64,000 nt of DNA from Syntrophobacterales bacterium. GTDB lineage: Bacteria; Desulfobacterota; Syntrophia; Syntrophales; UBA2192. The notes under the pieces were generated by a model. That model saw only the letters and a list, made by a program, of their open reading frames with translations. It was not told the DNA's origin and searched no databases. This document shows positions 10,272-28,794 of the stretch, one piece after another. Numbering within the stretch: position 1 is the first letter of the stretch; each line of letters begins with the position of its first letter. Location of the stretch: NCBI GenBank assembly GCA_018053845.1, contig JAGPKU010000001.1, positions 22,252-86,251 on the forward strand. The letters are read 5' to 3'. The translations under genes and the position numbers were made by a program.

Positions 10272-10401
10272 GTAACTCTGTTCCTCCTTGATCAGCGTGC
10301 CCCCTTCTTTATCGGGAGACGACGGTTTTTCTCGAATCACGATTATCGTCTGTGCAGACCGTGCAGTTTCCCAAAGACTGTTCAAACCTTCCCGGATGCA
10401 A

Positions 10402-13302: not shown

Positions 13303-13782
13303 ATGCCGCAGTTCACGCACCTCGACGAAAAAGGCAAGGCCCGGATGGTCGACGTCTCGGAGAAGCGCACGACCCTCCGCGAGGCCGTGGCCCGGGGCAA
13401 AGTCCTCATGAAGCCTCAGACGGCCCGGGCCATCGAGAGCCAGACGATCGCGAAGGGCGACGTGCTGGCCGTCGCGAAGATCGCCGGCGTCATGGCGGCC
13501 AAGAAGACCAGTGATCTCATCCCCCTGTGCCACCCGCTCGAGATCACGGCCGTCGACGTGAGCTTTCGCCCCGATGCCGGCCGGGGTGAAATCGAGATCG
13601 AGGCCTCGGTCCGGACAAGGGGCCGCACGGGCGTGGAAATGGAGGCCCTCACGGCCGTGAGCGCCGCGGCGCTCACCATCTACGACATGTGCAAGGCCGC
13701 GGACCGGGCCATGACCCTTTCGGACATCCGGCTCGTGCTCAAGCGGGGCGGCAAGAGCGGAACCTTCCGGCGAAAGGATTGA
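13303..13782 (+). CDS. moaC: Cyclic pyranopterin monophosphate synthase MoaC
   Basis: ATG at 13303. Motifs: MPQFTHLDEKGKARMVDVSEK, KGDVLAVAKIAGVMAAKKTSDLIPLCHPL, GVEMEALTAVSAAALTIYDMCKA. Confidence 0.9.
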   Translation: MPQFTHLDEKGKARMVDVSEKRTTLREAVARGKVLMKPQTARAIESQTIAKGDVLAVAKIAGVMAAKKTSDLIPLCHPLEITAVDVSFRPDAGRGEIEIEASVRTRGRTGVEMEALTAVSAAALTIYDMCKAADRAMTLSDIRLVLKRGGKSGTFRRKD

Positions 13783-13808
13783 CGGAAACACCCCCGTCGT
13801 TGGAACCC

Positions 13809-14324
13809 ATGTCAACCCGCATCTACACCATCAACAGGGCGCTCGTCCTGCCGCTGGCCCTGAATGCCGTGCTTTTGCTGACGGTGCTCGCCCTGACGGC
13901 CGTCCGGCCCTCGACGGCGGCCGAGAGGGTGCTGCTGGCGGCGGCGCTCGTCCCGATGGCCGTCATCGCCGTGGAGGCGTCCCTGCGCCGGGTCGCCGTG
14001 GGTGACGCGGGGCTCGTGCTGTCGAAATTCTTCAAGCAGCGCTCGTTGCAATGGGCGGACATCACCCACGTGGGCGCCCTGGCGGTGCGCAGGAAGGTCT
14101 ACCTGGTGCTGACCACCACGAAAGGCTTCCACGTCCTGTCCAACGCCTACGGCCGGTTCGGGGACCTCGTCCGCGACGTGCTGGCCCACGTGGAAGCCCA
14201 ACGGGTCGAGGAAGGCGCGCGGGAGATCCTCGAGGCCGCCGGCGAGAACCGCGCGAATCGATTTGCAGCCTGGCTTGCAGCGGTGCTGCTGCTGGTCGTC
14301 GCGGCCATGAAGATCGCAGCCTGA
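13809..14324 (+). CDS. Membrane protein with bacterial PH-like domain (hypothetical)
   Basis: ATG at 13809. Two N-terminal hydrophobic helices and one C-terminal helix. The central segment GDAGLVLSKFFKQRSLQWADITHVGA...KVYLVLTT resembles bPH-type domains. Confidence 0.55.
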   Translation: MSTRIYTINRALVLPLALNAVLLLTVLALTAVRPSTAAERVLLAAALVPMAVIAVEASLRRVAVGDAGLVLSKFFKQRSLQWADITHVGALAVRRKVYLVLTTTKGFHVLSNAYGRFGDLVRDVLAHVEAQRVEEGAREILEAAGENRANRFAAWLAAVLLLVVAAMKIAA

Positions 14325-14373
14325 AGCCGTGTCGGCCCCCGTGCAACCCGCACCGCGCAGCAGAGGAGAGGAC

Positions 14374-14667
14374 ATGAAAGTCACCAAGGCCCCGCCCACC
14401 CGCAGGACGGCATCGACGCTTCCCGGCATCGACGAGATCTTCGAGAAGAAGCTCGAGGAGCTGATCATCGTCCTGTCGGCCGGCCAGGGCGCCAAGAGCC
14501 AGGTGTACGAAGAGGTCCTCGCCCTGGTGGAGCGCGGCCTGATCCGGATCGCCCTGCAGCGCAACAACCATGTCAAGTCCGCGGCCGCTTCGTTTTTGGG
14601 GATCAACCGCAACACCTTCCAGAAGAAGATGGCCGCGCTGGGCGTCCCCTGCAAGAAATCGAAATAG
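14374..14667 (+). CDS. Fis-type helix-turn-helix DNA-binding protein
   Basis: ATG at 14374 after agaggagagga. The C-terminus VERGLIRIALQRNNHVKSAAASFLGINRNTFQKKM matches the Fis/NtrC-type HTH (...N.s.AA..LGI.R.TL..K...). Confidence 0.7.
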   Translation: MKVTKAPPTRRTASTLPGIDEIFEKKLEELIIVLSAGQGAKSQVYEEVLALVERGLIRIALQRNNHVKSAAASFLGINRNTFQKKMAALGVPCKKSK

Positions 14668-14813: not shown

Positions 14814-15392
14814 ATGAAGGTCGGCGTGCTCGCCCTGCAAGGGGCTTTCCGCGAACATGTCCGGATGCTGCGGGCTCTGGGCGTCGAGGCCGTCGAGATC
14901 CGCCTGCCCGCCGGTCTCGACGAGGTCGACGGGCTGATCCTCCCGGGCGGCGAGAGCACGACGATGCGCAAGCTGATGGCCGAGTACGGGCTGGTCGGCC
15001 CCATCCGGGAATTCGCGGCATCGGGGAAACCCGTGTTCGGCACCTGCGCCGGCCTCATCGTCATGGCCGACCGTCTCAGCGGCCGCAGGCAGGAGCTGCT
15101 GAACCTGATCGACATCGACGTGGAACGAAACGCCTACGGCCGCCAGGTCGACAGCCGGGAGGCGGACATATCCGGCGATGCCCTCGGGCCCGAGCCCTTT
15201 CACGCCGTGTTCATCCGCGCCCCGCAGATCCTGAGCACGGGGCCCGGGGTGGAGCCGCTGGCGCGTTACCGGGGCCAGGTCGTGCTGGCCCGGCAGAAGA
15301 ACATCCTGGTGGCGACCTTCCACCCCGAATTGACGGGCGACACCCGGATCCACGAGCTTTTTTTGCGGATGCTCGACCGCAAGGCACGATAA
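14814..15392 (+). CDS. pdxT: Pyridoxal 5'-phosphate synthase glutaminase subunit PdxT
   Basis: MKVGVLALQGAFREH, LILPGGESTT, GTCAGLI (catalytic Cys), ATFHPELT. Confidence 0.92.
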   Translation: MKVGVLALQGAFREHVRMLRALGVEAVEIRLPAGLDEVDGLILPGGESTTMRKLMAEYGLVGPIREFAASGKPVFGTCAGLIVMADRLSGRRQELLNLIDIDVERNAYGRQVDSREADISGDALGPEPFHAVFIRAPQILSTGPGVEPLARYRGQVVLARQKNILVATFHPELTGDTRIHELFLRMLDRKAR

Positions 15393-15490
15393 TTGAAGGA
15401 TTTCAGGGATTGAGCGCACCCGCTGAGGGTGCGCCCGAGGCTGCCGCCGAAGGGGCATCCCCCGAGGCGGACGGGATCCGACAGGAAACG

Positions 15491-18400
15491 ATGACCGTAC
15501 GAACCCTCTTGAAGACGCTCCTTTCCCCTCTCGCGCGGTGGCATCTCTGTGTCGGCCGCTCGCCCCGAAAGGCGCCCCCGCACTCGATCATCCTCTTCCC
15601 GGCGGACGAGACGCGGCTGTGCTGCGGCATCGCGGGCATCCTCGCCGTCAAGGGCGCCCCTGCGCCGGCCGCCGTCGACGCCGGCTCGAATCTCGCGCGG
15701 TGTTTCGCCGAGATCCGCCGGGCTCCCCTGTCGCAGGTGATCGCCGGCAGGACCCGCCCCGAGGGCTATCTCTCCGGCGAGTCCCCCCTGCGGGAAGCCG
15801 AGCGGGACCTGCTGCTGTTGAAACAGGAGACCCCTTTCCGGACGCTCTTTTTCGATCCCGGCAAGACCTCGGCGCTTCGCGCCCTCGTCTCGGAGACGGC
15901 GGCATTCCTCGCCGCGGAGGAAAGCCTGCTGGAGGCCGAAGCCGGACGCTTCACGACGGCGCAGATGGAGACCATCACGAGCCGCCTGATCCTCCTGAAA
16001 GACATTCTCTGGGGCCTCGAAAAGGACCTGCTCGCCAACATCGAGAAGATCCTGCACCTGGCCGCCGCCGAGCGCGTCGAAGAAATCACCCCCGAGAGCT
16101 TCGTCAAATTCGCCCGGGTCAATGTCCTGCTCAACGCCATCGACCGGCTGGAGGTCAGGGGGCGGGACTCGGCGGGCCTCCAGGTCTCGCTCACGATCAG
16201 AGACCGCGAAACCCTGGGCCGGATCATCGAGGAGATCCGGCGACAGGGGCTTCACGACGAGTTCCGGCGGCGCTCCGTCGAACGCGATCTGATGAACGGG
16301 ACCATCCTCGTGGCCGACCACGTCCACGCCGACGGGGGCATCTGGCTCTCCTTCGTCTACAAGACGGCCTCCATCATCGGCAAGCTCGGCGAGAACGTCT
16401 GCAGGCTCCGCGAGGCGATCCGGGCGGACCGGGTTTTCCATGCCTTCGCCCGGGAGGCCGCGATTTCGGAGTCGGTCTTCGCCCACACGCGCTGGGCCTC
16501 CGTGGGCTCCATCACCGAGGCGAACTGCCACCCCATCAGCGGCTACAGCCTCTGCGCACCGGGCTCCGACGGGCAGATCCCCCCGGCGGGCCTCTGCTCG
16601 ATCCCCGAACCGATCGCGGAGAAACTCGCCGACGGGAGTCCCCCGGGGACGAAGTTCTACCCCGCCTACGGGCCGGGCTGCTGGACGCTGAGCGTGGTCC
16701 TCAACGGCGACATCGACAACTACCCGATGCTGCGGTCCCTGCTCGAGTCGGCCTACGGCTATGCGATCGACCCCGAAGTCACCTCGGACACGAAGATCAT
16801 CCCCCTGCAGGTCGAGCGCCATCTCAAGGCCGGAGCGACCCTCGAGGAGGCCTTCCGGCTGGCCGCAAACGACTTCGAGGGCTCCCACGCCATCGCGCTG
16901 GTGAGCAATCTGGAGCCGGGAAAGATCTTCCTCGCCCTCAAGGGGAGCGGTCAGGCGATCTTCGTGGGCCTGCGCGAGGACCAGTACCTCTTCGCCTCCG
17001 AGCTCTACGGCATCGTGGAGGGAACGTCGCGCTTCATCAAGATGGACGGCGAGAAACCCCGCGACCCCGACAACCCCGACTCCTCCGGCCAGATCTTCGT
17101 GCTCGACCAGCACTCGGCCGGAGGGCTCGAGGGCATCCGGGCCCTCACCTACGACGGGCACCCCGTGAGGCTCACGGAGTCCATGATCCAGAAGGCCGAG
17201 ATCACCACCCGCGACATCGACCGGGGGCCCTTCCCCCATTTCTTCCTCAAGGAGATCACCGAATCGGCCCAGTCGGTCCGCAAGACCCTGCGCGGAAAGT
17301 ACCGCATCGAGCCGAAGAAGGACGGCAAGAAGAGGGTCCGCTTCAACCTCGGCCGGGACATCCTGCCGGAGAGCTTCGTGAAGAACCTCAAGTCGAAAAG
17401 GATCCGCCAGGTCTTCGTCATCGGCCAGGGCACGGCCGCCGTGGCCGGCCAGGCCATCGCCGACGGCCTCGCCCTGTACCTCAAGGGCGCGTCCGTCAAC
17501 ATCCTGGCGAAGAAGGCCACGGAGATGAGCGGGTTCTTCCTCTGCGAGGACCTTTCGGACACGCTCGTCATCGCCGTGACCCAGTCGGGCACGACGACGG
17601 ACACGAACCGCGCCGTGGCCATGGCCGCCGAGCGGGGCGCCACGATCCTCTCCATCGTCAACCGCCGCCAGTCCGACATCACGACGAAGTCCCACGGCGT
17701 CTTCTACACGAGCGACGGCCGCGACATCGAGATGTCCGTGGCCTCCACGAAGGCATTTTACTCGCAGATCGTGGCGGGGTACGTGCTGGCGCTGGCCTTC
17801 GCCCAGATCCTGAAGACCCGGTCCGACGAGTTCATCGCCGGGGAGCTTGCGACCCTCGAGACGACCCCCGGCCTCATGCGACAGGTGCTGGAGAAGAGGG
17901 ACGAGATCCGCCGCTCGGCCGAACAGACGGCCCGGCAGAAGAAATACTGGGCCGTCGTGGGAAGCGGCCCCAACAAGGTCTCGGCCGACGAGATCCGGAT
18001 CAAGCTCTCGGAGCTGTGCTACAAGACGATCTCGTCGGACGTCATCGAGGACAAGAAGCACATCGACCTCTCCTCGGAGCCCCTCATCCTCGTCTGCGCC
18101 GCCGGCAACCCCGAGACCGTGGCGGGCGACGTGGTCAAGGACACGGCCATCTTCAAGGCCCACAAGGCCTCCGTCGTCGTCTTCGCCGAGGAGGGAGAGA
18201 CGCGCTTCGACCGCATCGCCGACTCCGTGATCCGCGTCCCGAGGGCGCCCATGCCGCTGCCGGTCATCCTGAACACGCTGGCCGGGCACCTCTGGGGATA
18301 CTACGCCGCCTCCGCGATCGACGACGATGCGGCCTTCTTCCGCGGCTTCCGCAACGAGCTGAGCCTCGCCGTCGTCGAGCAGGACCGGAAGCACTACACC

Positions 18401-19303
18401 CTCTACCAGCGGCTCCTCGACCGCAACCTCCACCGGGTCCTCAAGGAGTTCTCGCAGCAGTTCACCGAACGCAAGAACCGCGGCAGCTTCAGCCTGCTGA
18501 GCGCCCGCACGATGACGGACATCTCGCTGCTGACGAAATACGCGGCCGGCAAGCTCCCCCTGGAAGACTTCTGGGCGGACTTCGGCGAGGAAGACGGGAA
18601 CGGCTCGCCCATCGACCTCCTGAACGTCGCCTTCGGGCATGCCATCGACGAGCTCTCGCGGCCCATCGACGCCATCCGCCACCAGGCCAAGACGGTGACC
18701 GTCGGCACGAGCCGCAAGGAGGAGATGCCCCGGGGCGTGCTGTTCGACCTGCTGGCCGGCCTCAAGATCACCGCCAAGAACCTGAAGGCCGACAACCTCC
18801 TGGCCCTGGACCGCATCCAGAAGGCCGTCGCCGGTGTCCGGGGGTACACCCTCTACGAGATCGACAACCTCGACGCGGAGGGGCATCCCACCGACGACAC
18901 GACGATCTCCGTCGTGAACCGGGGGGGGATATCCGTCGGGATGGTTTCCCGCACCGAGACGTCGAAGAGCCTCATCGGCACGAAGCGCACGCTCGTCCGG
19001 ACGGGGGAGCTCTACGTGGGACGCGGGCGGGTGGACGGCAGTCCGCTCGTCATCGTCCCCCTGCTCAAGGGGGCCGCGGGCGTCAGAGGGCTGCTGCTGG
19101 CCCACGTGGAATTCCACCCGGCCCTGTCGCCCGAAGACAAGGCGGAGGTCCTGGGCGACCGATACCGCGACATCCGCAACCTGATCAACGAGTACAACCT
19201 CCCCTGGGACGACCGGTATCTCGAGCCCCTTTCCCTGGAATCCCTCTTCGGCGAATCCGTTGAAACCATCGTCGAGCGGATTCGGTTGACACTGAGTGGA
19301 TGA
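15491..19303 (+). CDS. Giant GlmS-like glutamine--fructose-6-phosphate aminotransferase homologue (class II amidotransferase plus two SIS domains, with large insertions; 1270 aa)
   Basis: ATG at 15491, in frame with ORF 14570..19303, whose upstream part overlaps pdxT. Matches to GlmS: CCGIAG (Ntn Cys), RGRDSAGLQV, HTRWASVGSITEANCHP, VVLNGDIDNY, SDTKIIP. SIS1: VTQSGTTTDT...SVASTKAFYSQI. SIS2: VVGSGPNKVSADEIRIKLSELCY. An AKTVTVG tail-like motif is followed by about 210 more residues. Confidence 0.8.
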   Translation: MTVRTLLKTLLSPLARWHLCVGRSPRKAPPHSIILFPADETRLCCGIAGILAVKGAPAPAAVDAGSNLARCFAEIRRAPLSQVIAGRTRPEGYLSGESPLREAERDLLLLKQETPFRTLFFDPGKTSALRALVSETAAFLAAEESLLEAEAGRFTTAQMETITSRLILLKDILWGLEKDLLANIEKILHLAAAERVEEITPESFVKFARVNVLLNAIDRLEVRGRDSAGLQVSLTIRDRETLGRIIEEIRRQGLHDEFRRRSVERDLMNGTILVADHVHADGGIWLSFVYKTASIIGKLGENVCRLREAIRADRVFHAFAREAAISESVFAHTRWASVGSITEANCHPISGYSLCAPGSDGQIPPAGLCSIPEPIAEKLADGSPPGTKFYPAYGPGCWTLSVVLNGDIDNYPMLRSLLESAYGYAIDPEVTSDTKIIPLQVERHLKAGATLEEAFRLAANDFEGSHAIALVSNLEPGKIFLALKGSGQAIFVGLREDQYLFASELYGIVEGTSRFIKMDGEKPRDPDNPDSSGQIFVLDQHSAGGLEGIRALTYDGHPVRLTESMIQKAEITTRDIDRGPFPHFFLKEITESAQSVRKTLRGKYRIEPKKDGKKRVRFNLGRDILPESFVKNLKSKRIRQVFVIGQGTAAVAGQAIADGLALYLKGASVNILAKKATEMSGFFLCEDLSDTLVIAVTQSGTTTDTNRAVAMAAERGATILSIVNRRQSDITTKSHGVFYTSDGRDIEMSVASTKAFYSQIVAGYVLALAFAQILKTRSDEFIAGELATLETTPGLMRQVLEKRDEIRRSAEQTARQKKYWAVVGSGPNKVSADEIRIKLSELCYKTISSDVIEDKKHIDLSSEPLILVCAAGNPETVAGDVVKDTAIFKAHKASVVVFAEEGETRFDRIADSVIRVPRAPMPLPVILNTLAGHLWGYYAASAIDDDAAFFRGFRNELSLAVVEQDRKHYTLYQRLLDRNLHRVLKEFSQQFTERKNRGSFSLLSARTMTDISLLTKYAAGKLPLEDFWADFGEEDGNGSPIDLLNVAFGHAIDELSRPIDAIRHQAKTVTVGTSRKEEMPRGVLFDLLAGLKITAKNLKADNLLALDRIQKAVAGVRGYTLYEIDNLDAEGHPTDDTTISVVNRGGISVGMVSRTETSKSLIGTKRTLVRTGELYVGRGRVDGSPLVIVPLLKGAAGVRGLLLAHVEFHPALSPEDKAEVLGDRYRDIRNLINEYNLPWDDRYLEPLSLESLFGESVETIVERIRLTLSG

Positions 19304-19354
19304 AGAACCATTTCCCCGGCCGGCCTTGCGGAAACGAAAAACCCGTTGACCTTC

Positions 19355-20674
19355 ATGGTTCCGATCGCAGATGATGAAACCGTTGCGTCCGCCGGCAGGG
19401 CGCGACCGGGAGGTCCGGTGGCATTGAAGCCGAGAGCTGAAGCGAAGATCGCTCAACTGCTGAAAAAGGGGGTGGACATCCCCAACCCGCTGACCCTGGA
19501 CATCGGGGATGACGTCCCGATCGACCGGATCTCCGCACGGGGCGTCACCCTCTACCCGGGCTGCAGGATCTACGGGGAGAAGACGGTGATCTCGGCGGGC
19601 TGCAGGATCGGCTACGAGGGCCCGGCGACCGTCGAGAACTGCCGGCTCGGGACCGGCGTGGAGCTCAAGGGCGGTTTCTTCAGCCGGTCCGTCTTCCTGG
19701 GAAAGGCCAGCATGGGCCTGGGCGCCCACGTCCGCGAAGGCTCCATCCTCGAAGAGGAAGCCGGGGGCGCCCACTGCGTCGGCCTGAAGCAGACCATCCT
19801 GTTCCCGTTCGTGACGCTGGGGAGCCTGATCAACTTCTGCGACTGCCTGATGGCGGGGGGCACGAGCCGCCGGAATCACAGCGAGGTCGGCAGCTCCTAC
19901 ATCCACTTCAACTTCACGCCCGACGCCGACAAGGCGACGCCCTCCCTGATCGGCGACGTGCCGCGGGGCGTCATGCTGAACCAGCCCCCGATTTTTCTGG
20001 GCGGCCAGGGGGGCCTCGTCGGCCCGTTGCGGCTGGGATACGGCAATGTCGTGGCGGCCGGATGCGTGCTGAGACACGATCACCCGGAAGGCAACCGGCT
20101 GATCCGCGAGGCCGACGCCGCCGCGGGCGAGAGAGATTTCGTGCCGGGGGCATACCCCCGCTTCGGGCGCATCGTGGAGAACAACCTGCTCTACCTGGCC
20201 AATCTGGCGGCCCTGGAGGCGTGGTACCGCGACGTGCGGAAGCCCTTCCTGGAGGCTCAGGAATTCGGCGCGCTCCTCTATGCCGGCGTCATGGAGCAGC
20301 TGGCCGCGGCCCGAACGGAGCGCCTCGAGCGGCTCGAGGCCATGGCGGAAAAGGCCGCCTCCGCCGTCACCTCGGGCCGGCCCGCGAAAGCGGCCCGAGC
20401 CAGGCGGGAATTCCATGCGCGCTTCGAGGCCGTCGAGGCCGCCCTCCGGGAGCCGGTGCCGGGCGACGAGACGGAACGATCCCGAGAGGCATTCCTCGAG
20501 GCCTTTCAGCGCGCGGCGGGCCGGGACCGCTCGAATTACATCGCGGCGATCCAGGGCCTCCCGGCGGAGGTCTCTTCAATAGGCGTTCGATGGCTCGGCC
20601 GCCTGGTCGATGACCTCTGCGCAGGGGCCGCCGCGGCGGTGCCGTCCCTGGGGTTGTTCAACGATCCGGCATGA
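19355..20674 (+). CDS. Left-handed beta-helix (LbH) protein, GlmU C-terminal-like acyl/acetyltransferase without a nucleotidyltransferase domain
   Basis: Hexapeptide-type periodicity: GVTLYPGCRIYGEKTVISAGCRIG...VENCRLGTGVELKGGFF...LGKASMGLGAHVREGSIL. The C-terminal ~170 aa are helical. The start is ambiguous (TTG 19346 or ATG 19355). Confidence 0.65.
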   Translation: MVPIADDETVASAGRARPGGPVALKPRAEAKIAQLLKKGVDIPNPLTLDIGDDVPIDRISARGVTLYPGCRIYGEKTVISAGCRIGYEGPATVENCRLGTGVELKGGFFSRSVFLGKASMGLGAHVREGSILEEEAGGAHCVGLKQTILFPFVTLGSLINFCDCLMAGGTSRRNHSEVGSSYIHFNFTPDADKATPSLIGDVPRGVMLNQPPIFLGGQGGLVGPLRLGYGNVVAAGCVLRHDHPEGNRLIREADAAAGERDFVPGAYPRFGRIVENNLLYLANLAALEAWYRDVRKPFLEAQEFGALLYAGVMEQLAAARTERLERLEAMAEKAASAVTSGRPAKAARARREFHARFEAVEAALREPVPGDETERSREAFLEAFQRAAGRDRSNYIAAIQGLPAEVSSIGVRWLGRLVDDLCAGAAAAVPSLGLFNDPA

Positions 20675-20698
20675 ATCACAGGACGAACGAGATTGCGG

Positions 20699-22075
20699 AT
20701 GGGTAAGCTGTTCGGGACAGACGGGATCCGGGGAGAGGCGAACCGGTATCCCATGAACGCGGAGACCGCCTTCGCGGTCGGTCAGGCCGTGGCGCACGTG
20801 TTCAAGAAGGACGGGCACCGCGCCCGGGTGATCATCGGCAAGGACACCCGGATTTCCGGGTACATGCTGGAAAGCTCCCTCGAGGCGGGAATCACCTCCA
20901 TGGGCGGGCACCCGTACCTGGTGGGCGTGCTGCCGACCCCCGGGATCGCCTTCATCACCCAGAGCATGCGCGCCGATGCCGGCGTCGTGATCTCCGCATC
21001 CCACAACCCCTTCCAGGACAACGGCCTGAAGATCTTCGGGGGCAACGGGTACAAGCTGACCGACGCCGAGGAGGAGCACATCGAAGAGCTCATCCTCAAC
21101 AAGAAGCTCACCGACCTGCTGCCCACGGCGAAGGGCATGGGGAAGGCCTTTCGCATCGACGACGTCCACGGCCGCTACATCGTGTTCCTGAAAAACACCT
21201 TTCCGCGCCGGCTCTCCATGGAGGGGATGAAGATCGTGATGGACACGGCCAACGGCGCCGCCTACCGGGTCGCCCCCGAGGCCTTCATCGAGCTGGGCGC
21301 CGACGTGGAGGTGATCCACAACACGCCCAACGGCATCAACATCAACGACCGGTGCGGCTCCCAGCACACGGCGGACCTGCGGAAAAAGGTGGTGGAGTCC
21401 GGGGCGGCCGTCGGCCTGGCCTTTGACGGGGACGGAGACCGCCTCATCGCCGTCGATGAAAAGGGCAGGGAGATCACGGGCGACCAGGTCCTCGTCATTT
21501 GCGCCGACCGGCTCAAGAAAGAAGGGAAGTTGAAGAACGACCTCCTCGTCACCACCGTGATGAGCAACCTGGGCCTGAGGGTCGCCTGCCGGAAGTACGG
21601 ATTCCGGCACCACGCCTCCCAGGTGGGGGACCGTTACGTTCTGGAGGACATGCTGCGCCTCGGGGCCGTCATCGGCGGCGAGGACGCGGGGCACATGATC
21701 TTCCTGGAGCATCACACGACGGGCGACGGCATCATCGCCGCCATGCAGCTGGTGGCCGCGATGGTCCGGGAGGGGAAGCCCCTGTCCGAGATGGCCGCCA
21801 TGATGGACATCTACCCGCAGAAACTGATCAACGTGGACGTGCAGCGCAAGCCCGCGATCGAGACCGTCCCCCGGCTCATGGAGGCCATCCGGCAGGCGGA
21901 GCGCGAGCTCGGCGACGAGGGGCGCGTCCTGGTCCGTTACTCCGGAACCCAGCAGATGTGCCGGGTGATGGTGGAGGGGCCGTCCGCCGAGGTCACGGAA
22001 AAGTACTGCACCCGGATCGCCGACATCGTACGCAGCGAACTCGGCGGAACGACCGGAGAGGAGGGAGCCGGGTAA
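20699..22075 (+). CDS. glmM: Phosphoglucosamine mutase
   Basis: MGKLFGTDGIRG, VISASHNPFQDNGLK (phosphoserine loop), FDGDGDR, GGEDAGH. The start is ATG 20699 or TTG 20693. Confidence 0.92.
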   Translation: MGKLFGTDGIRGEANRYPMNAETAFAVGQAVAHVFKKDGHRARVIIGKDTRISGYMLESSLEAGITSMGGHPYLVGVLPTPGIAFITQSMRADAGVVISASHNPFQDNGLKIFGGNGYKLTDAEEEHIEELILNKKLTDLLPTAKGMGKAFRIDDVHGRYIVFLKNTFPRRLSMEGMKIVMDTANGAAYRVAPEAFIELGADVEVIHNTPNGININDRCGSQHTADLRKKVVESGAAVGLAFDGDGDRLIAVDEKGREITGDQVLVICADRLKKEGKLKNDLLVTTVMSNLGLRVACRKYGFRHHASQVGDRYVLEDMLRLGAVIGGEDAGHMIFLEHHTTGDGIIAAMQLVAAMVREGKPLSEMAAMMDIYPQKLINVDVQRKPAIETVPRLMEAIRQAERELGDEGRVLVRYSGTQQMCRVMVEGPSAEVTEKYCTRIADIVRSELGGTTGEEGAG

Positions 22076-22189
22076 GGACAAGGGCAGGGCGAAGCTCCCC
22101 GCCCCCGGGGCGCGTCCGCCCGGTGCTCCCGTCGAGTGCATCGCCCCCGGCTCCGCAAGACCCAGAACCCCGGCAAGGAGAGATCCCCC

Positions 22190-23728
22190 ATGATCGCCAT
22201 TCTCGATTTCGGATCCCAGTACAACCAGCTCATCGCCCGGCGCGTCCGCGAGTGCCGGGTCTACTGCGAGATCCTGCCCCACGACATCTCTCCTGAAACG
22301 CTGAGAGCGAAGCCGGTGGAAGGAATCATCCTCTCCGGGGGGCCCGCCAGCATCTTCGACCGGGGCGTCCCGACCTGCGATGCGGGGATCTTCGAGATGG
22401 ACGTCCCCGTCCTCGGGATCTGTTACGGCGTGCAGCTCATGGCGCACACGCTGGGCGGGACGGTCACGGCCTCGCCGCTGCGCGAGTACGGGCCCGCCGA
22501 GCTCGAGCTCAACGACCGGGGGAAGCGGTCCCTGCTGTTCGCCGGCCTCGAGGGGCGCCAGCGGATCTGGATGAGCCACGGCGACCGGGTCACGAAGCTG
22601 CCGAAGGGGTTCAGCGTGACCGGCACGACGGCCAACTGCCCCGTGGCCGTCATGGAGAACCCCGGGCGCAGGCTCTACGGCGTGCAGTTCCACCCCGAAG
22701 TGCACCACACGGTCAACGGCATCGCCCTCATCCAGAACTTCCTGTTCCGCATCTGCGGCTGCCGCCCCACGTGGACCATGGGCTCCTTCATCGAGGAGAA
22801 CGTCCGGCGCATCCGCGAGCAGGTGGGCGACGAGCGCGTGCTCTGCGCCCTCTCGGGCGGCGTGGACTCGTCGGTGCTGGCCGTGCTCCTCCACAAGGCC
22901 ATCGGGAAGCGGCTCGTCTCCATCTTCGTCGACAACGGCCTGCTGCGGGAAAACGAGGTGGAGGAGGTCGTCTCCACCTTCCGGGACCAGTACCACCTGA
23001 ACTTCCGTCTCGTGCGGGCGGGCGAGCGCTTCCTCAAGAGGCTCGCCGGCGTCGCCGACCCCGAGCGCAAGCGCAAGATCATCGGCCGTGAGTTCATCGC
23101 CGTCTTCGAGGAGGAGGCGAAAAAGCTGGGACGCGTCCGTTATCTCGCCCAGGGGACCCTCTACCCCGACGTCATCGAGAGCACCTCCTCCTTCGGCGGG
23201 CCCTCGGTGGTCATCAAGAGCCATCACAACGTGGGCGGCCTGCCGGCGAGGCTCAAGATGTCGCTCGTCGAGCCGCTGCGGGTTCTCTTCAAGGACGAGG
23301 TCCGGGAGCTGGGCCGCGAGCTGGGCCTGCCCGAGTCCCTCGTGGGGCGTCACCCCTTCCCGGGTCCGGGGCTGGCGGTGCGCATCCTCGGCCCCGTCAC
23401 GAAGGAGAAGCTCGCCGTCGTGCGCCGCGCCGACGCCATCCTGCGCGAGGAGGTCTGGAAGGCCGGCCTCTTCAACCACGTCTGGCAGGAGCTGGCGGTG
23501 CTGCTGCCCGTCAAGACCGTCGGGGTCATGGGCGACGGGCGGACCTACGAGAACGTGATCGCCCTGCGGGCCGTCACGAGCACCGACGGGATGACGGCCG
23601 ACTGGGTGAGGTTCCCCCACGACGTGCTCGAGAAGATCTCGAGCCGCATCGTCAACGAGGTCAAGGGCGTCAACCGCGTCGTCTACGACGTGAGCACCAA
23701 GCCGCCCAGCACGATCGAGTGGGAGTGA
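22190..23728 (+). CDS. guaA: GMP synthase (glutamine-hydrolysing)
   Basis: ATG at 22190. Motifs: [39 protein letters not shown] (PP-loop), and a C-terminus ending PPSTIEWE. Confidence 0.95.
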
Positions 23729-23884
23729 CGGACCGCCGAAGGACACAGCGGTCTGCGTTATGAGAGTTGAGTGTTGAATAAGGATGGATCGATGCAGGCG
23801 AAAAGAATGAATCCGAACCTTCAATACGAAATTCAAAACTCATCACTTGACAGGGTCCGCTGAAGCGGACACAGATAGACCTGA

Positions 23885-25531
<1,647 letters not shown>

Positions 25532-25532
25532 T

Positions 25533-25636
25533 AGAGGACAGGGTCCAGGGTACGAACGACAGGGGATAGGGGACAGGGCAGAAACGACGAGGTTCAGACG
25601 CCAAGGTACAGGGTCCAGGGAAGACAAGGCATAAGA
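25533..25636. repeat. AGG-phased low-complexity tract with 13-nt direct repeat (family E)
   Basis: ACAGGGTCCAGGG at 25538-25550 and 25608-25620, directly after the pyrG stop and before its terminator. Confidence 0.7.
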
Positions 25637-25637
25637 A

Positions 25638-25682
25638 AGAGGGCAGGGCCGGAATTCGGCTCTGCCCTCTTCTGCGTTTTTT
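25638..25682 (+). terminator. Rho-independent terminator after pyrG
   Basis: AGAGGGCAG-N15-CTGCCCTCT followed by TCTGCGTTTTTT. Confidence 0.75.
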
Positions 25683-25703
25683 GGTCACGGGCCTGGAAAA
25701 GAC

Positions 25704-25805
25704 GGAAGTCAGGAAGCTGGGAAGTTGTGAAGAGCGGAATGGAAGGTAGAACTTCTTGTCCGCTCTTCCTCACTTCTGCTCTTCCGCTCTTCGCAAGCTT
25801 CCTGT
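25704..25805. repeat. Heptad hairpin element, family D
   Basis: GGAAGTCAGGAAGCTGGGAAGTTGTGAAGAGCGG faces CCGCTCTTCCTCACTTCTGCTCTTCCGCTCTTCGCAAGCTTCC. 25704-25718 is the reverse complement of AGCTTCCTGACTTCC at 47444-47458. It overlaps the 3' end of ORF 25709..26305. Confidence 0.8.
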
Positions 25806-26305
25806 TCACAGGCGAACGCAGAGCCATCAGCCTGTTGCCCGGTAAGCCTTGGTGAATCGACCTGGTGTGCTTCCAGGGACATCGCCTTCTCCAGCGAGTT
25901 GAAGAAGTTCTGATAGGGCTTGGCCTCCGTGACGGGGCTCCGCTGGTATTCCGCGCTGGCCCGCACGAGGAGTTGCCTCTCGCCCCGGGGCCGCACCGTC
26001 ACGGTGATTCTCAGGCTGGCATAGACCTGCATCTGCATGGAATCGGCCCGCGCCTTGCTGGCTGTGACGACGCCGAGGGTGGAGTCGGCCCGGTCGAGCA
26101 TGAAGCCGAGATCCTGCAGGGTGGCGATGATGGCCCGCATCGTCTTCTCCTTGTCCGCCGTGTCGAGGCGCCTCGTCTGCATCTGCCTCCGGGCGAACAT
26201 TTCCGGCGTCAGGTTCAAGTCCCTGTCGAGCGTGACGGCGTAACACCCCGTCATCAGCAGCAGTGCCGCCAGAGCAGCGCACCCGAAGCGAAAAGGCAGC
26301 CTCAT
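25709..26305 (-). CDS. Lipoprotein, function unknown
   Basis: Signal peptide with a lipobox (ALLLMTGC). The last ~30 codons and the stop lie inside repeat family D, so the true C-terminus is uncertain. Confidence 0.55.
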   Translation of the reverse strand: MRLPFRFGCAALAALLLMTGCYAVTLDRDLNLTPEMFARRQMQTRRLDTADKEKTMRAIIATLQDLGFMLDRADSTLGVVTASKARADSMQMQVYASLRITVTVRPRGERQLLVRASAEYQRSPVTEAKPYQNFFNSLEKAMSLEAHQVDSPRLTGQQADGSAFACEQEACEERKSRSEEERTRSSTFHSALHNFPAS

Positions 26306-26310
26306 GGGAA

Positions 26311-26745
26311 TCAGAACGTAGAAGACCGGTAGGCGAAGTCGCGCACCTTCTTCTGCTCGTCGAACTTGACGATCACCGTGAGAGACTTCTGCGTCGAGGA
26401 GCTGGCGCCCGAACTCTGCCCGGCCAGGCCGCCTCCCCCGCCGGAGCCGCCCGTGAGGATGCCGAGGATCAGGGCCGAACTCGACGAGTAGACGTTCTCC
26501 GTCGAGATCCGGTCGCAGACCCAGACCTCCCTGCCCTTCTCGTCCGTCGTGAAGACGTTCGGGGAGCCGAGGGCCTCCACCACCTGGGCGCCCGACATCC
26601 CCACGCGGATCTCGCGCTGCACCGTCCCGACGGTGAGCTTGTCGCCCTCGCGGGCCTTCTGCACGTCCGCCGCGTGCATGGAAGCACAGCCTGTCAGCAG
26701 GGCAATCGACAGAACGATCAGCACAGCCGGATTCCCGTGTCGCAT
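26311..26745 (-). CDS. Lipoprotein with BamE/SmpA_OmlA-like domain and Gly/Ser-rich linker
   Basis: Internal start MRHGNPAVLIVLSIALLTGC (ATG 26745, GGAGG upstream). REIRVGMSGAQVVEALGSPN is BamE-like. Confidence 0.6.
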   Translation of the reverse strand: MRHGNPAVLIVLSIALLTGCASMHAADVQKAREGDKLTVGTVQREIRVGMSGAQVVEALGSPNVFTTDEKGREVWVCDRISTENVYSSSSALILGILTGGSGGGGGLAGQSSGASSSTQKSLTVIVKFDEQKKVRDFAYRSSTF

Positions 26746-26911
26746 GGTTCCTCCCCTGGTGCGGCGTCCCGTCATCCGGGACGACCGGCCGTTTGGGGCT
26801 GTTTTGACTCCGGACGTTTTTTGTCAGGACCTTTTGCGGGATGCCGCAAATTCCCTGTGGCCCCCCGGGCCCGCTGCGTATAAAATATGAGAAAAGCCGC
26901 CCGGAGATGCC

Positions 26912-27205
26912 ATGAAGGCGCCCCCCTGTGCATTCAGCGAGATGGTCGGCAAGATCCAGGTGCTGACCCTGGAGGTGCGGACGGCACTGTCCGCGGAAGA
27001 GCTCGACGCACGGATGAGAGCCTGCTTCGGGGCCGGGGGCCTCGGGCTGAACCTCGAGGAGGAACCGACCGACCGCCTAACCTTCACGGGCGGCGGGGGG
27101 CACGTGTCGGCGACTTTACGCCCGGATGGCGGGGGGACGCTTTTGCGGATCGTGACAAGCGGGTGGGCCGTCCAGGTGAAGCGATTCGTCAACGAGCTGC
27201 CCTGA
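26912..27205 (+). CDS. Hypothetical small protein (97 aa)
   Basis: GC3-rich open frame with no recognisable motifs. The start may instead be the internal Met at 26942. Confidence 0.4.
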   Translation: MKAPPCAFSEMVGKIQVLTLEVRTALSAEELDARMRACFGAGGLGLNLEEEPTDRLTFTGGGGHVSATLRPDGGGTLLRIVTSGWAVQVKRFVNELP

Positions 27206-27281
27206 ACCGCCGTCCGCCCCGGGGCACGGGGATCCTCCCGCGAGCGGGGACGGGGGCGAAAAAAGACAGGAGGGAACGGTG

Positions 27282-27689: not shown

Positions 27690-27716
27690 AAACCCGGATC
27701 GGATCCATGACGCTCC

Positions 27717-27744
27717 GGGATCGGGCAGTCACCTGCCCGATCCC
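27717..27744. terminator. Perfect 12-bp stem hairpin between convergent genes (no U-tract)
   Basis: GGGATCGGGCAG-tcac-CTGCCCGATCCC, between stop 27689 (+) and stop 27765 (-). Confidence 0.4.
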
Positions 27745-27764
27745 TACACCCCGCCCCCCGTCTT

Positions 27765-28766: not shown

Positions 28767-28794
28767 CGTCTTTCTCCCCCCACTCGTTCCCTTT

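What the first reader, a model, noticed from the sequence alone, without database searches (positions are those of the whole stretch)
15491..22075. Giant GlmS-like enzyme with a ~150-aa insertion inside the Ntn amidotransferase domain, in an operon with an LbH-only GlmU-like protein and GlmM
All landmark GlmS motifs are present: CGIAG, RGRDSAG, HTRWAS...NCHP, VLNGDIDNY, two SIS domains with S-G-T-T-x-D-T and ASTKAF, and an AKTVTVG tail-like motif. But the protein is 1270 aa against ~610 for GlmS.

Three differences stand out:
- The nucleophile Cys is at residues 44/45 of the longest ATG-initiated frame. That implies a propeptide or an unannotated non-ATG start.
- About 178 residues separate CGIAG from RGRDSAG, against ~25 in E. 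coli GlmS. The inserted segment looks helical.
- About 210 residues follow the normally C-terminal tail motif.

The next gene has only the left-handed beta-helix part of GlmU (no uridylyltransferase domain) plus a helical C-terminal domain. glmM follows. Together this looks like a variant UDP-GlcNAc entry pathway, or a pathway to a different amino sugar.
Basis: partly seen in the sequence, partly recalled or inferred. Interest (0 to 1): 0.62.

Follow-up and report, generated by a model that had tools for sequence, protein, structure and literature searches.

The report
Double-length GlmS family with extra domains
This is a real, expressed, double-length version of GlmS, the enzyme that makes the first amino-sugar building block of the bacterial cell wall; the family is large but undescribed, keeps every catalytic residue, and adds three modules of unknown, probably regulatory, role.

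Summary

- **Not an artefact.** Four independent metagenome assemblies show no indels. At least 591 species genomes and 415 protein clusters (50% identity) carry the same architecture.
- **Catalytic core intact.** All GlmS catalytic and substrate-binding residues are invariant. The AlphaFold model matches GlmS/GFAT1 at E about 5e-24.
- **Family-wide extras.** These are a ~150-aa helical insert after strand 1 of the glutaminase domain, a ~100-aa helical insert before the "C-tail", and a ~195-aa C-terminal alpha/beta domain. That domain has no Pfam or PDB sequence match and only a weak PAS/GAF-like fold match.
- **N-terminal extension.** The 44 residues before the nucleophile Cys are conserved only in a Desulfobacterota-type subclade. 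About two thirds of 61 sampled representatives start Met-Cys, so it is most likely a cleaved propeptide.
- **Housekeeping role.** In three actinobacteria-style genomes the long form sits in the glmS slot (rplM-rpsI-glmM-[long glmS]-acpS-alr).

NCBI's models score it below cutoff and name it "SIS domain-containing protein". I found no paper on it. Absence of a canonical glmS/glmU genome-wide could not be tested.

The parts
15491..19303 (+). Long-form glmS gene (1270 aa plus stop)
   Evidence: ORF. GlmS models match but below cutoff: TIGR01135 216 bits against 418. Foldseek to GFAT1/GlmS at E about 5e-24. All catalytic residues are invariant. No indels in 4 independent assemblies. RNA contigs cover it.
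15491..15622 (+). N-terminal extension, aa 1-44; probable propeptide ending just before Cys45
   Evidence: The motif W.I..G.DP...P..SIIxFPL....L.CG is conserved in the Desulfobacterota-type subclade. It is absent in about 40 of 61 sampled representatives, which start Met-Cys, and in two Syntrophales members with in-frame stops upstream. pLDDT is 55-68.
15623..15625 (+). Codon of Cys45, equivalent to the Cys1 nucleophile of GlmS
   Evidence: Invariant in 117 of 117 close and 61 of 61 broad family members. The preceding Cys44 is variable: C/F/S/P/A/Y/H/T.
15653..16120 (+). Insert A, aa 55-210: helical domain in the loop between strand 1 and helix 1 of the Ntn glutaminase domain
   Evidence: 4 residues in E. 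coli against 120-176 in all 61 family members. Helices 64-218 have pLDDT about 90. Only D171 and W174 are conserved family-wide. No Pfam hit.
16121..17215 (+). Remainder of the glutaminase (Ntn) domain plus linker, aa 211-575. Contains R223, R334, W335, N405, G406 and D433, and the lineage-specific loop aa 349-398 (16535-16684)
   Evidence: Residue mapping to E. coli R26, R73, W74, N98, G99 and D123, all invariant. Pfam GATase_6 at 400-504. The loop at 356-374 has pLDDT below 50 and varies from 6 to 51 aa across the family.
17216..18322 (+). Isomerase domain (two SIS subdomains), aa 576-944, with T648, Q698, S699, T702, S752, K838, E841 and H857
   Evidence: Pfam SIS at 639-769. Alignment to GFAT1/GlmS. 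Residues equal to E. coli T302, Q348, S349, T352, S401, K485, E488 and H504 are invariant. Foldseek TM about 0.8 to isolated isomerase domains.
18323..18655 (+). Insert E, aa 945-1055: helical insert between SIS2 and the tail motif
   Evidence: 9 residues in E. coli against 91-131 in the family. Long helices 923-966 and 1040-1065. No residue conserved at 90% or more.
18656..18715 (+). Internalised "C-tail", aa 1056-1075 (RPIDAIRHQAKTVTVGTSRK), with K1067 equal to E. coli Lys603
   Evidence: The most conserved segment of the protein: 15 of 25 positions of aa 1056-1080 are conserved at 90% or more. Aligns to E. coli AKSVTVE. Followed by a linker with pLDDT below 50 at 1072-1078.
18716..19300 (+). 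C-terminal alpha/beta domain plus terminal helices, aa 1076-1270; function unknown, proposed ligand sensor
   Evidence: AlphaFold pLDDT about 90. Foldseek gives only weak PAS/GAF/Cache-like hits, E 0.008-0.1. No Pfam or PDB sequence match even with a profile. Found only at the C-terminal end of 1100-1280-aa proteins, in 415 clusters. Conserved polar residues: S1153, R1154, K1165, D1182, H1205, E1234.
19346..20674 (+). GlmU-like left-handed beta-helix protein without a nucleotidyltransferase domain (442 aa). GlmU-like arm plus beta-helix at about aa 32-255 (19439-20110); extra C-terminal half at aa 256-442
   Evidence: No Pfam hit. NCBIfam GlmU models at E about 1e-11, far below cutoff, matching only profile positions about 231-447. 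PDB profile hit to GlmU residues 245-452 at E 1e-4. Adjacent to the long glmS in 28 of 79 loci. The family is large, with members about 400-465 aa.
20693..22075 (+). glmM (phosphoglucosamine mutase)
   Evidence: TIGR01455 580.8 bits against a cutoff of 447.55; four PGM/PMM Pfam domains.
14814..15392 (+). pdxT, the upstream co-directional gene (context)
   Evidence: Identified by eye from the ORF translation. tblastn with this ORF finds 77-80% identical genes in L002 and L003. RNA contigs 15324-15501 and 15377-15604 bridge its 3' end into the long glmS.
22136..25531 (+). guaA (22136-23728) and pyrG (23897-25531), downstream co-directional genes (context)
   Evidence: ORFs. pyrG lies next to the long glmS in 38 of 79 related loci.
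25637..25671 (+). Strong terminator-like hairpin after pyrG: 16-bp stem, then a T-rich tail. Likely end of the gene string
   Evidence: No comparable terminator was found between pdxT and pyrG on the + strand.

Best explanation
**What it is.** window:15491-19303 encodes a functional glutamine:fructose-6-phosphate amidotransferase (GlcN-6-P synthase). It belongs to a large, undescribed "long-form GlmS" family of about 1120-1280 aa. This family most likely serves as the housekeeping GlmS in Syntrophales, Desulfobacterales and several other lineages.

**Shown.**
- The complete GlmS catalytic machinery is present and invariant: the Ntn Cys, the glutamine site, Trp74, the Fru-6-P phosphate and sugar site, Glu488, His504 and Lys603.
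- The fold is that of GlmS/GFAT.
- The gene is transcribed.
- It is linked to glmM and other envelope and housekeeping genes.

**Inferred.**
1. The 44 residues before Cys45 are a propeptide that must be removed, probably autocatalytically as in PurF and GltS, to free the alpha-amino group of Cys45. Probability about 0.6.
2. Three modules form a regulatory or assembly superstructure: helical insert A, helical insert E and the C-terminal alpha/beta domain. In canonical GlmS the C-tail carrying Lys603 is free and closes over the sugar site and ammonia channel. Here it is tethered on both sides. Ligand binding or movement of the C-terminal domain could therefore gate tail closure and give allosteric (feedback) control. 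Probability about 0.3-0.4.
3. The downstream beta-helix protein is a GlmU-derived partner. It is either the GlcN-1-P N-acetyltransferase acting after GlmM or a sugar-phosphate-binding regulator. Low confidence.
For: **Catalytic core.**
- E. coli residues C1, R26, R73, W74, N98, G99, D123, T302, Q348, S349, T352, S401, K485, E488, H504 and K603 map to invariant residues in 117 of 117 homologues. The same columns stay conserved at 90% or more in 61 representatives, some as low as about 30% identical to the window protein in the C-terminal region.
- Foldseek of the 1-1200 model (pLDDT 80.8, pTM 0.72) hits whole GFAT1 and GlmS at E about 5e-24, with TM about 0.6-0.68 normalised to the target. Isomerase domains give TM about 0.8.

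**Real gene.**
- At least 591 species genomes carry it, and 415 clusters at 50% identity.
- No indels in 4 assemblies. Metatranscriptome contigs cover it.

**Housekeeping role.**
- glmM lies 2 genes downstream here. glmM is near in 14 of 79 loci and pyrG in 38 of 79. A penicillin-binding-protein transpeptidase gene is a recurrent upstream neighbour in 15 loci, and in the one annotated Desulfobacterales-type locus (L083) kdsB lies between it and the long glmS.
- In three near-complete genomes the long form sits at rplM-rpsI-glmM-[long glmS]-acpS-nnr-alr-tsaE...groES/EL. From my own knowledge, this is the canonical glmS position in Actinobacteria.
- No canonical glmS or GlmU N-terminal domain was found in the 64-kb window or within 10 kb in 80 loci.

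**Propeptide.**
- Cys45 is invariant, and Ntn chemistry needs a free N-terminus (established knowledge).
- About 40 of 61 representatives start M-C-G.
- Two Syntrophales members with the same synteny start ATG-TGY behind a Shine-Dalgarno sequence, with in-frame stops upstream.

**Sensor idea.**
- The C-terminal domain is confidently folded.
- Its only structural neighbours are PAS/GAF/Cache sensor domains.
- It keeps conserved polar residues, while the helical inserts keep almost none.
- The tail is the most conserved segment and is followed by a low-pLDDT linker.
Against: - No biochemical data exist.
- The protein scores only 216 bits on TIGR01135 (cutoff 418), and NCBI calls it merely "SIS domain-containing protein".
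- Absence of a canonical glmS/glmU in the same genomes was not tested genome-wide.
- The N-extension is itself conserved. This fits a functional prosequence, but also a retained regulatory segment.
- PAS/GAF similarity of the C-terminal domain is weak: E at least 0.008, TM at most 0.45. There is no sequence support.
- Model coordinates could not be inspected, so contacts between the inserts, the tail and the ammonia channel are unknown.
- The beta-helix protein lacks an obvious equivalent of GlmU His363 and Ser405.
- The beta-helix protein is not linked to the long GlmS outside Syntrophales-type loci.
Confidence: 0.72

Rival explanations
1. It is a specialised paralogue, making a different amino sugar or acting mainly as a deaminase or isomerase. 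An ordinary glmS/glmU pair elsewhere in the genome does the housekeeping job.
For: It scores below the curated GlmS cutoffs and gives a weak secondary hit to NagB-II. It shows a few substitutions at GlmS positions: S303A, S347T, H77V, H97L, H493T. The genome outside the 64-kb window was not searched.
Against: All catalytic and Fru-6-P/glutamine-binding residues are invariant. Linkage to glmM is tight, and the gene sits in the glmS slot of actinobacteria-type genomes. It is single-copy and present in at least 591 species, in housekeeping neighbourhoods. No second GlmS-like hit appears in any fetched locus.
Confidence: 0.12
2. The N-terminal 44 residues are not removed. They stay attached as an autoinhibitory or regulatory segment, so the glutaminase is silent or works differently (for example ammonia-dependent synthesis) until some signal arrives.
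For: The extension is conserved in sequence across the subclade (G22, F36, P37, the SIIxFPL motif). AlphaFold places short strands in it. No processing data exist.
Against: Most family members, and two close Syntrophales relatives, lack it entirely and start Met-Cys. It is therefore dispensable for function. All glutamine-site residues remain invariant in proteins that carry it. Known Ntn amidotransferases with N-terminal extensions (PurF, GltS) remove them (established knowledge). pLDDT is only 55-68.
Confidence: 0.12
3. The start codon is mis-called, and translation really begins at or next to Cys45.
For: In canonical GlmS, Cys follows the initiator Met directly.
Against: Codons 43-44 are CTG and TGC, with no ATG, GTG or TTG and no Shine-Dalgarno sequence there. 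The upstream 30 or so residues are conserved at protein level across homologues of 55-83% identity. RNA contigs span 15324-15604.
Confidence: 0.03
4. The giant ORF is a frameshift or assembly artefact fusing two or more genes.
For: None found.
Against: The same architecture occurs in hundreds of independent genomes. There are no indels or alternative joints of substance in four independent assemblies. The inserts lie inside domains, not between genes.
Confidence: 0.01

Closest known systems
GlmS / GFAT (glutamine-fructose-6-phosphate aminotransferase, EC 2.6.1.16; E. coli GlmS, PDB 2j6h/4amv; human GFAT1, 6r4e)
   Same: Same domain order: Ntn glutaminase, then two SIS subdomains, then the Lys603 tail. 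All catalytic and substrate residues are the same. The fold is the same (Foldseek E about 5e-24). It is linked to glmM.
   Different: Twice the length. It has a ~150-aa helical domain in the loop between strand 1 and helix 1, and a ~100-aa helical insert before the tail. The tail is internal, not C-terminal. A new ~195-aa C-terminal domain is added. In this lineage there is a 44-aa N-terminal extension and an extra loop at 349-398. It scores below the curated GlmS HMM cutoffs.
Ntn (class II) amidotransferases with propeptides: B. subtilis PurF (11-aa propeptide) and glutamate synthase GltS/GltB (own knowledge)
   Same: An N-terminal peptide precedes the conserved Cys-Gly nucleophile, which must become residue 1.
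   Different: To my knowledge no propeptide has been reported for GlmS. This one is longer (about 43 aa), has its own conserved motif, and is present only in one subclade of the family. Cleavage is not demonstrated.
GlmU (bifunctional GlcN-1-P acetyltransferase / GlcNAc-1-P uridylyltransferase), compared with the downstream 442-aa protein
   Same: Homologous to the GlmU helical arm plus left-handed beta-helix. Equivalents of the GlcN-1-P phosphate and sugar ligands R333, K351, N386 and K392 are invariant (R130, K148, N189, K196).
   Different: It has no nucleotidyltransferase domain. There is no clear equivalent of the catalytic His363 (it aligns with Ser160 or Phe164), and Ser405 becomes Gly. 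It has an insertion, GGTSRxNHSEVGSS, and an extra ~185-aa C-terminal half. It scores far below the GlmU cutoffs. The database name "UDP-GlcNAc pyrophosphorylase" is not justified by its domains.
Known controls of GlmS: the glmS ribozyme, the GlmY/GlmZ sRNAs, the GlmR (YvcK) activator, and UDP-GlcNAc feedback on eukaryotic GFAT (own knowledge)
   Same: The proposed role of the extra domains is control of hexosamine flux.
   Different: No glmS ribozyme or other Rfam family is present in the window. Here the putative control element would be built into the enzyme itself. This is a hypothesis only.
PAS/GAF/Cache small-molecule sensor domains (for example KinD 4jgo, WalK 4ywz, NreA 6izj)
   Same: The C-terminal domain has a 5-stranded antiparallel sheet with helices between strands 2 and 3. 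These domains are its only Foldseek neighbours.
   Different: Similarity is weak (E 0.008-0.1; TM at most 0.45). There is no sequence-profile match to any Pfam or PDB entry. Three or four extra C-terminal helices are present.

Membership tests
GlmS (TIGR01135 / EC 2.6.1.16) | Conserved Cys nucleophile in a C-G-[IVLF]-x-G strand | tested here: met
   C45-G46 are invariant in 117 of 117 and 61 of 61 family members and align to E. coli Cys1.
GlmS (TIGR01135 / EC 2.6.1.16) | The Cys is the N-terminal residue of the mature protein | not testable with these tools
   The ORF encodes 44 residues before it. Most relatives start Met-Cys. Processing needs protein-level data.
GlmS (TIGR01135 / EC 2.6.1.16) | Glutamine-site and channel residues R26, R73, W74, N98, G99, D123 | tested here: met
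   R223, R334, W335, N405, G406 and D433 are all invariant.
GlmS (TIGR01135 / EC 2.6.1.16) | Two SIS subdomains with Fru-6-P ligands and catalytic residues K485, E488, H504 | tested here: met
   T648, Q698, S699, T702, S752, K838, E841 and H857 are invariant. S303 becomes A and S347 becomes T. Foldseek TM about 0.8 to isomerase domains.
GlmS (TIGR01135 / EC 2.6.1.16) | C-terminal tail bearing Lys603 at the very C-terminus | tested here: not met
   The motif HQAKTVTVG (K1067) is invariant, but it is internal: 198 more residues follow it.
GlmS (TIGR01135 / EC 2.6.1.16) | Score at or above the curated HMM cutoff | tested here: not met
   TIGR01135 gives 216 bits against 418; NF001484 gives 240 against 381. 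The actinobacteria-type member gives 198 bits.
GlmS (TIGR01135 / EC 2.6.1.16) | GlcN-6-P synthase activity, or complementation of a glmS mutant | not testable with these tools
   Needs an experiment.
GlmS (TIGR01135 / EC 2.6.1.16) | Genomic role as the glmS of the organism: linkage to glmM/glmU, and being the only copy | tested here: inconclusive
   Linked to glmM here and in 14 of 79 loci. It occupies the rplM-rpsI-glmM-glmS-acpS-alr slot in 3 genomes. A whole-genome check for a second glmS was not possible.
GlmU (TIGR01173), for the 442-aa downstream protein | N-terminal nucleotidyl (uridylyl) transferase domain | tested here: not met
   Matches cover only GlmU profile positions about 231-447. 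There is no tblastn hit of the E. coli GlmU N-terminal domain in the window or in 80 loci.
GlmU (TIGR01173), for the 442-aa downstream protein | Left-handed beta-helix acetyltransferase domain with catalytic His363 and GlcN-1-P ligands | tested here: inconclusive
   The arm plus beta-helix is homologous at E 1e-4 to 1e-11. R333, K351, N386 and K392 equivalents are invariant (R130, K148, N189, K196). His363 aligns to Ser160 or Phe164, and Ser405 to Gly220.
GlmM (TIGR01455) | Score above the equivalog cutoff, and four PGM/PMM domains | tested here: met
   580.8 bits against 447.55; PF02878, PF02879, PF02880 and PF00408 all present.
Propeptide-bearing Ntn amidotransferases (PurF/GltS type) | A peptide directly precedes the nucleophile Cys and is dispensable in relatives | tested here: met
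   There are 44 aa before Cys45. About 40 of 61 representatives and two close relatives lack it.
Propeptide-bearing Ntn amidotransferases (PurF/GltS type) | The peptide is actually cleaved | not testable with these tools
   Needs N-terminal sequencing or intact-mass measurement.
PAS/GAF-like sensor domains, for aa 1076-1270 | Significant fold or profile similarity to PAS/GAF/Cache | tested here: inconclusive
   Foldseek's best hits are all of this class, but with E 0.008-0.1 and TM at most 0.45. Pfam and PDB profile searches are negative.

The most novel reading that the evidence does not exclude
The long-form GlmS is a self-regulating enzyme. Its C-terminal alpha/beta domain binds a pathway metabolite such as UDP-GlcNAc, GlcN-6-P or GlcN-1-P. 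Through the two helical inserts it pulls the internalised Lys-bearing tail on or off the sugar site and ammonia channel. This would be a protein-built feedback switch, standing in for the glmS ribozyme or the GlmY/Z and GlmR systems in Desulfobacterota and several uncultivated phyla. In one subclade a conserved ~43-aa propeptide would add zymogen-like activation, and in Syntrophales a GlmU-derived beta-helix protein would act as a partner.
Probability: 0.25. Interest if true: 0.78.

Novelty: new variant of a known kind. Interest (0 to 1): 0.64.

Why it matters
GlmS is the committed step to UDP-GlcNAc, which feeds peptidoglycan, LPS and other envelope polymers. It is a classic model for ammonia channelling and for metabolite-sensing regulation.

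A double-length form is conserved in at least 591 species across several phyla and has no literature that I could find. This implies three things.

1. **Annotation gap.** Current NCBI annotation hides the glmS of many environmentally important anaerobes (Syntrophales, Smithella, Desulfobacterales) and of some actinobacteria-type sludge organisms under the name "SIS domain-containing protein". That leaves an apparent gap in metabolic reconstructions.
2. **New domains to study.** There is an unstudied domain set grafted onto a textbook enzyme, including a domain with no Pfam family. It may reveal a new mode of control of amino-sugar synthesis.
3. **A natural experiment.** GlmS can tolerate an internal tail and, apparently, a propeptide. 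That tests current ideas on how the C-tail and N-terminal Cys operate.

Tried and rejected
- **Canonical glmS/glmU nearby.** tblastn of E. coli GlmS and GlmU against the window found only the long gene and the beta-helix gene. The same search over 80 related loci found no canonical glmS and no GlmU N-terminal domain. A whole-genome check was not possible.
- **Riboswitch or ribozyme.** Rfam at gathering cutoffs over the whole window found nothing, so there is no glmS ribozyme.
- **Pfam on the extra regions.** Searches at E up to 10 on aa 1-330, aa 952-1270 and the beta-helix protein gave no hits. Scanning 36 C-terminal domains one by one gave only scattered single chance hits.
- **PDB sequence profile of the C-terminal domain.** Nothing meaningful.
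- **Foldseek of the C-terminal region.** Only weak PAS/GAF-like hits, so I do not file the domain as PAS or GAF.
- **Literature.** Six full-text searches combined glmS or GlcN-6-P synthase with Syntrophus, Desulfobacter(ales), Deltaproteobacteria, propeptide/Ntn, or C-terminal extension. None returned a paper on a long GlmS.
- **kdsB neighbour.** The nucleotidyltransferase gene overlapping the long glmS start in L083 might have been the missing GlmU half. It is kdsB.
- **Second beta-helix copy.** I looked for one in the window and in the loci; none was found.
- **Insert position relative to the ammonia channel.** I could not determine this, because model coordinates are not exposed.

Full report
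**1. What is at the coordinates**

The longest ATG-started frame, 15491-19303(+), gives a 1270-aa protein.
- It follows pdxT (14814-15392) after a 98-nt gap.
- A 442-aa gene (19346-20674) comes next, then glmM (20693-22075), guaA and pyrG.
- The only strong terminator-like hairpin on this strand lies after pyrG, at 25637-25671.

Database models see only part of the protein.
- Pfam finds one SIS domain (639-769) and a partial GATase_6 (400-504).
- NCBIfam glmS (TIGR01135) gives 216 bits against a cutoff of 418, matching only residues 400-945.
- glmM is unambiguous: TIGR01455 gives 580.8 bits against 447.55.

**2. Not an artefact, and not rare**

- A protein search returned more than 100 full-length homologues of 1220-1300 aa at 55-83% identity. 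NCBI names them "SIS domain-containing protein"; IMG names them GlmS.
They are Syntrophales, Smithella, Desulfomonilia, many Desulfobacterales and others.
- The region is held nearly identically in 20 sludge, wastewater and digester metagenomes. Contigs from four independent runs tile the gene with no insertions or deletions.
- Metatranscriptome contigs cover patches of the long gene, the 442-aa gene and glmM. Two of them, 15324-15501 and 15377-15604, run from the end of pdxT into the N-terminal extension. DNA carry-over in those libraries cannot be excluded.

**3. It is a GlmS in every catalytic respect**

I aligned 116 homologues, the window protein and E. coli GlmS (taken from NC_000913). 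Every residue I know to define the enzyme maps to an invariant column.

| E. coli GlmS | Window protein |
|---|---|
| Cys1 | C45 |
| Arg26 | R223 |
| Arg73 / Trp74 | R334 / W335 |
| Asn98 / Gly99 | N405 / G406 |
| Asp123 | D433 |
| Thr302 | T648 |
| Gln348 / Ser349 / Thr352 | Q698 / S699 / T702 |
| Ser401 | S752 |
| Lys485 | K838 |
| Glu488 | E841 |
| His504 | H857 |
| Lys603 | K1067 |

Only S303A, S347T, H77V, H97L and H493T differ.

An AlphaFold model of residues 1-1200 has mean pLDDT 80.8 and pTM 0.72. It matches whole human GFAT1 and E. coli GlmS at Foldseek E about 5e-24, with TM 0.6-0.68 normalised to the target. Isolated isomerase domains give TM about 0.8.

**4. What is extra**

| Segment | Residues | E. 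coli length | Family length | Notes |
|---|---|---|---|---|
| N-terminal extension | 1-44 | 1 | 1-72 | subclade only |
| Insert A | about 55-210 | 4 | 120-176 | all helical, pLDDT about 90 |
| Between RGRDSAG and HTRW | 237-330 | 33 | 52-99 | about +55 aa |
| Loop | 349-398 | 4 | 6-51 | low confidence, variable |
| Linker region | 520-570 | 30 | 34-81 | about +20 aa |
| Insert E | 945-1055 | 9 | 91-131 | helical, between SIS2 and tail |
| C-terminal region | 1076-1270 | 1 | 184-205 | after the tail motif |

A separate model of residues 952-1270 has pLDDT 87. It shows helices, then a five-stranded alpha/beta domain, then terminal helices.
- Its Foldseek neighbours are all PAS/GAF/Cache-type sensor domains (KinD, WalK, LOV, GAF, NreA). 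The statistics are weak: E 0.008-0.1, TM at most 0.45.
- Neither Pfam (E up to 10, and 36 members scanned one by one) nor a PDB profile search finds any sequence relative.

**5. How wide the architecture is, and which parts are ancestral**

An exhaustive HMMER search with residues 952-1270 against 1.84 billion cluster representatives found 415 clusters at E up to 1e-3, and 230 at E up to 1e-10.
- Every full-length hit is 1100-1280 aa, with the match at its C-terminal end.
- The short hits look like gene fragments.
- The C-terminal region therefore appears confined to this family.

Named members include Ca. Schekmanbacteria and Ca. Xenobia.

I aligned 61 representatives, some only about 30% identical to the window protein in the C-terminal region.
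- Insert A, insert E, the tail and the C-terminal domain are universal.
- The N-extension and the long 349-398 loop belong to a Desulfobacterota-type subclade.

Conservation is informative.
- The tail R-P-x-D-x-I-x-H-Q-A-K-T-V-T-V-G-x-S-R is the most conserved stretch of the whole protein.
- The helical inserts keep almost nothing; only D171 and W174 are conserved.
- The C-terminal domain keeps a set of polar residues: S1153, R1154, K1165, D1182, H1205 and E1234.

**6. The N-terminal extension**

- Cys45 is invariant, while Cys44 varies (C/F/S/P/A/Y/H/T). The preceding 30 or so residues carry a conserved motif, W.I..G.DP...P..SIIxFPL....L.CG.
- Codons 43 and 44 are CTG and TGC, so no standard start codon lies next to Cys45.
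- About two thirds of the sampled representatives start directly with M-C-G.
- Two Syntrophales members with the same local gene order (moaC, a Fis-type HTH gene, the beta-helix gene, then the long glmS) start ATG-TGY. They have a good Shine-Dalgarno sequence and in-frame stop codons just upstream.

Ntn amidotransferases need the free alpha-amine of the N-terminal Cys, and PurF and GltS remove such peptides (established knowledge). The most economical reading is a propeptide acquired in one subclade. Cleavage itself is inferred, not shown.

**7. Genomic role**

No canonical glmS or glmU lies in the 64-kb window. None lies within 10 kb of the long gene in 80 related loci.

Conserved neighbours are housekeeping or envelope genes.
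- pyrG in 38 of 79 loci.
- The beta-helix gene in 28.
- moaC and a small membrane protein with weak bacterial-PH/DUF6585 matches in 24 each.
- A Fis-type HTH gene in 17.
- A penicillin-binding-protein transpeptidase gene in 15.
- glmM in 14.
- In the one annotated Desulfobacterales-type locus (L083), the order just upstream is transpeptidase, kdsB, long glmS.

Three divergent members lie on 2.1-4.2-Mb contigs, and this is the most telling evidence. Their gene order is ...rplM-rpsI-glmM-[long glmS]-acpS-nnr-alr-tsaE-tsaB-rimI-tsaD-groES-groEL, or the corresponding part of it within the 8-kb flanks. From my own knowledge, this is the conserved actinobacterial neighbourhood in which the ordinary glmS sits. 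That is positional orthology, and it argues that the long form is the glmS of those organisms. The member in that slot also scores below NCBI's GlmS cutoff, so standard annotation would miss it.

**8. The 442-aa neighbour**

- It has no Pfam hit.
- A profile of 29 family members hits only GlmU structures, at E 1e-4. The hit covers the GlmU helical arm and the whole left-handed beta-helix, GlmU residues 245-452.
- Equivalents of the GlmU GlcN-1-P ligands R333, K351, N386 and K392 are invariant: R130, K148, N189 and K196.
- The catalytic His363 aligns with Ser160 or Phe164, depending on the aligner, and Ser405 aligns with Gly.
- There is no nucleotidyltransferase domain. The database name "UDP-N-acetylglucosamine pyrophosphorylase" is therefore not supported by the domain content.
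- Copies upstream of the long glmS are 44-53% identical to the window protein. Copies downstream, most of them followed by glmM, are 47-76% identical, mostly 59% or more. No locus holds both.

Its function remains open. It may be a GlcN-1-P N-acetyltransferase with a different catalytic base, or a sugar-phosphate-binding partner or regulator.

**9. Most likely mechanism**

*Shown.* The enzyme has the complete GlmS active sites and fold.

*Inferred.*
- After removal of residues 1-44, Cys45 hydrolyses glutamine. Ammonia passes the Trp335 gate to the isomerase site, where Lys1067, Glu841 and His857 convert Fru-6-P to GlcN-6-P. GlmM then makes GlcN-1-P.
- In canonical GlmS the free C-terminal tail closes over the sugar site and completes the channel (established knowledge). 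Here the same, extremely conserved tail is tethered between helical insert E and a flexible linker to the C-terminal domain.
- I therefore propose that the C-terminal domain, perhaps together with insert A, controls tail closure in response to a ligand or partner. The probability is about 0.3-0.4. It rests on architecture, on the conservation pattern and on a weak fold resemblance. Coordinates could not be inspected.

**10. Comparison with known families, novelty and verdict**

It works like GlmS/GFAT and is best filed as a divergent GlmS subfamily. It fails two formal membership criteria: the curated HMM cutoff and a truly C-terminal tail. Its mature N-terminus is untested.

Six literature searches found nothing on a long GlmS. 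I rate it a new variant of a known kind.

The "variant UDP-GlcNAc entry" reading is supported and the propeptide reading is favoured. The "different amino sugar" and artefact readings are not supported.

Noticed in passing
window 14814-33000: Glutamine-dependent amidotransferase genes are unusually dense here. pdxT (14814-15392), the long glmS, guaA (22136-23728) and pyrG (23897-25531) lie in one co-directional string. A purQ-like GATase_5 gene (28830-29690, -) and purL (29895-32978, -) lie close by. pyrG is also next to the long glmS in 38 of 79 related loci. This may reflect co-regulation by nitrogen or glutamine status.
   Followed up: partly
window 29895-32978 (-): The purL product is 1027 aa. 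It carries a PurS-like segment (PF02700, residues 120-187) in front of the FGAR-AT linker and AIRS domains. This looks like a PurS-PurL fusion with about 120 extra N-terminal residues.
   Followed up: no
window 13689-14667 (+), and loci L082 and L089: Two small genes lie just upstream of the long glmS or beta-helix gene in many Syntrophales loci: in 24 and 17 of 79 loci respectively. One is a ~170-210-aa membrane protein with weak bacterial-PH/DUF6585 matches. The other is a ~110-aa Fis-type HTH_8 protein. The HTH protein could be a local regulator. The 13689 start overlaps moaC by about 90 nt and is probably called too early.
   Followed up: partly
L082:5150-5205 and L089:2540-2595: The two Syntrophales relatives whose long glmS lacks the N-extension both carry short tandem 7-nt repeats (ACTTATG/ACTTACG and ACTCATA/ACTTGTA types) in the intergenic region just upstream of the Shine-Dalgarno sequence.
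   Followed up: no
window 15266-20416 (-): A 1716-aa open frame runs antisense to the long glmS and the beta-helix gene. Many other long ORFs lie on the opposite strand. They are the usual stop-free frames of 66% G+C DNA, not genes. They also displaced the true genes in a naive longest-ORF filter.
   Followed up: yes
window 9387-10385 (-) and 14814-15392 (+): pdxS and pdxT, the two subunits of PLP synthase, are not adjacent. They lie 4.4 kb apart on opposite strands, with comM/yifB, murI, moaC and two small genes between them.
   Followed up: no
L083:9240-10004: In a divergent (Desulfobacterales-type) member, kdsB (CMP-Kdo synthetase; NF003952, 306 bits) overlaps the long glmS start by 4 nt. 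A penicillin-binding-protein transpeptidase gene lies just upstream. This links the gene to envelope synthesis there.
   Followed up: yes
loci L002-L081 (beta-helix genes): The GlmU-like beta-helix gene occurs in two positions. Upstream of the long glmS it is 44-53% identical to the window copy. Downstream, mostly followed by glmM, it is 47-76% identical. L003's long GlmS is 81% identical to the window's, yet its upstream beta-helix gene is only 53% identical. This suggests two paralogous lineages rather than one gene that moved.
   Followed up: partly
window 38319-44993 (-): An ordinary RND efflux operon: a TetR regulator, a membrane-fusion protein, an AcrB-type pump and an outer-membrane factor. 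It is unrelated to the finding.
   Followed up: no
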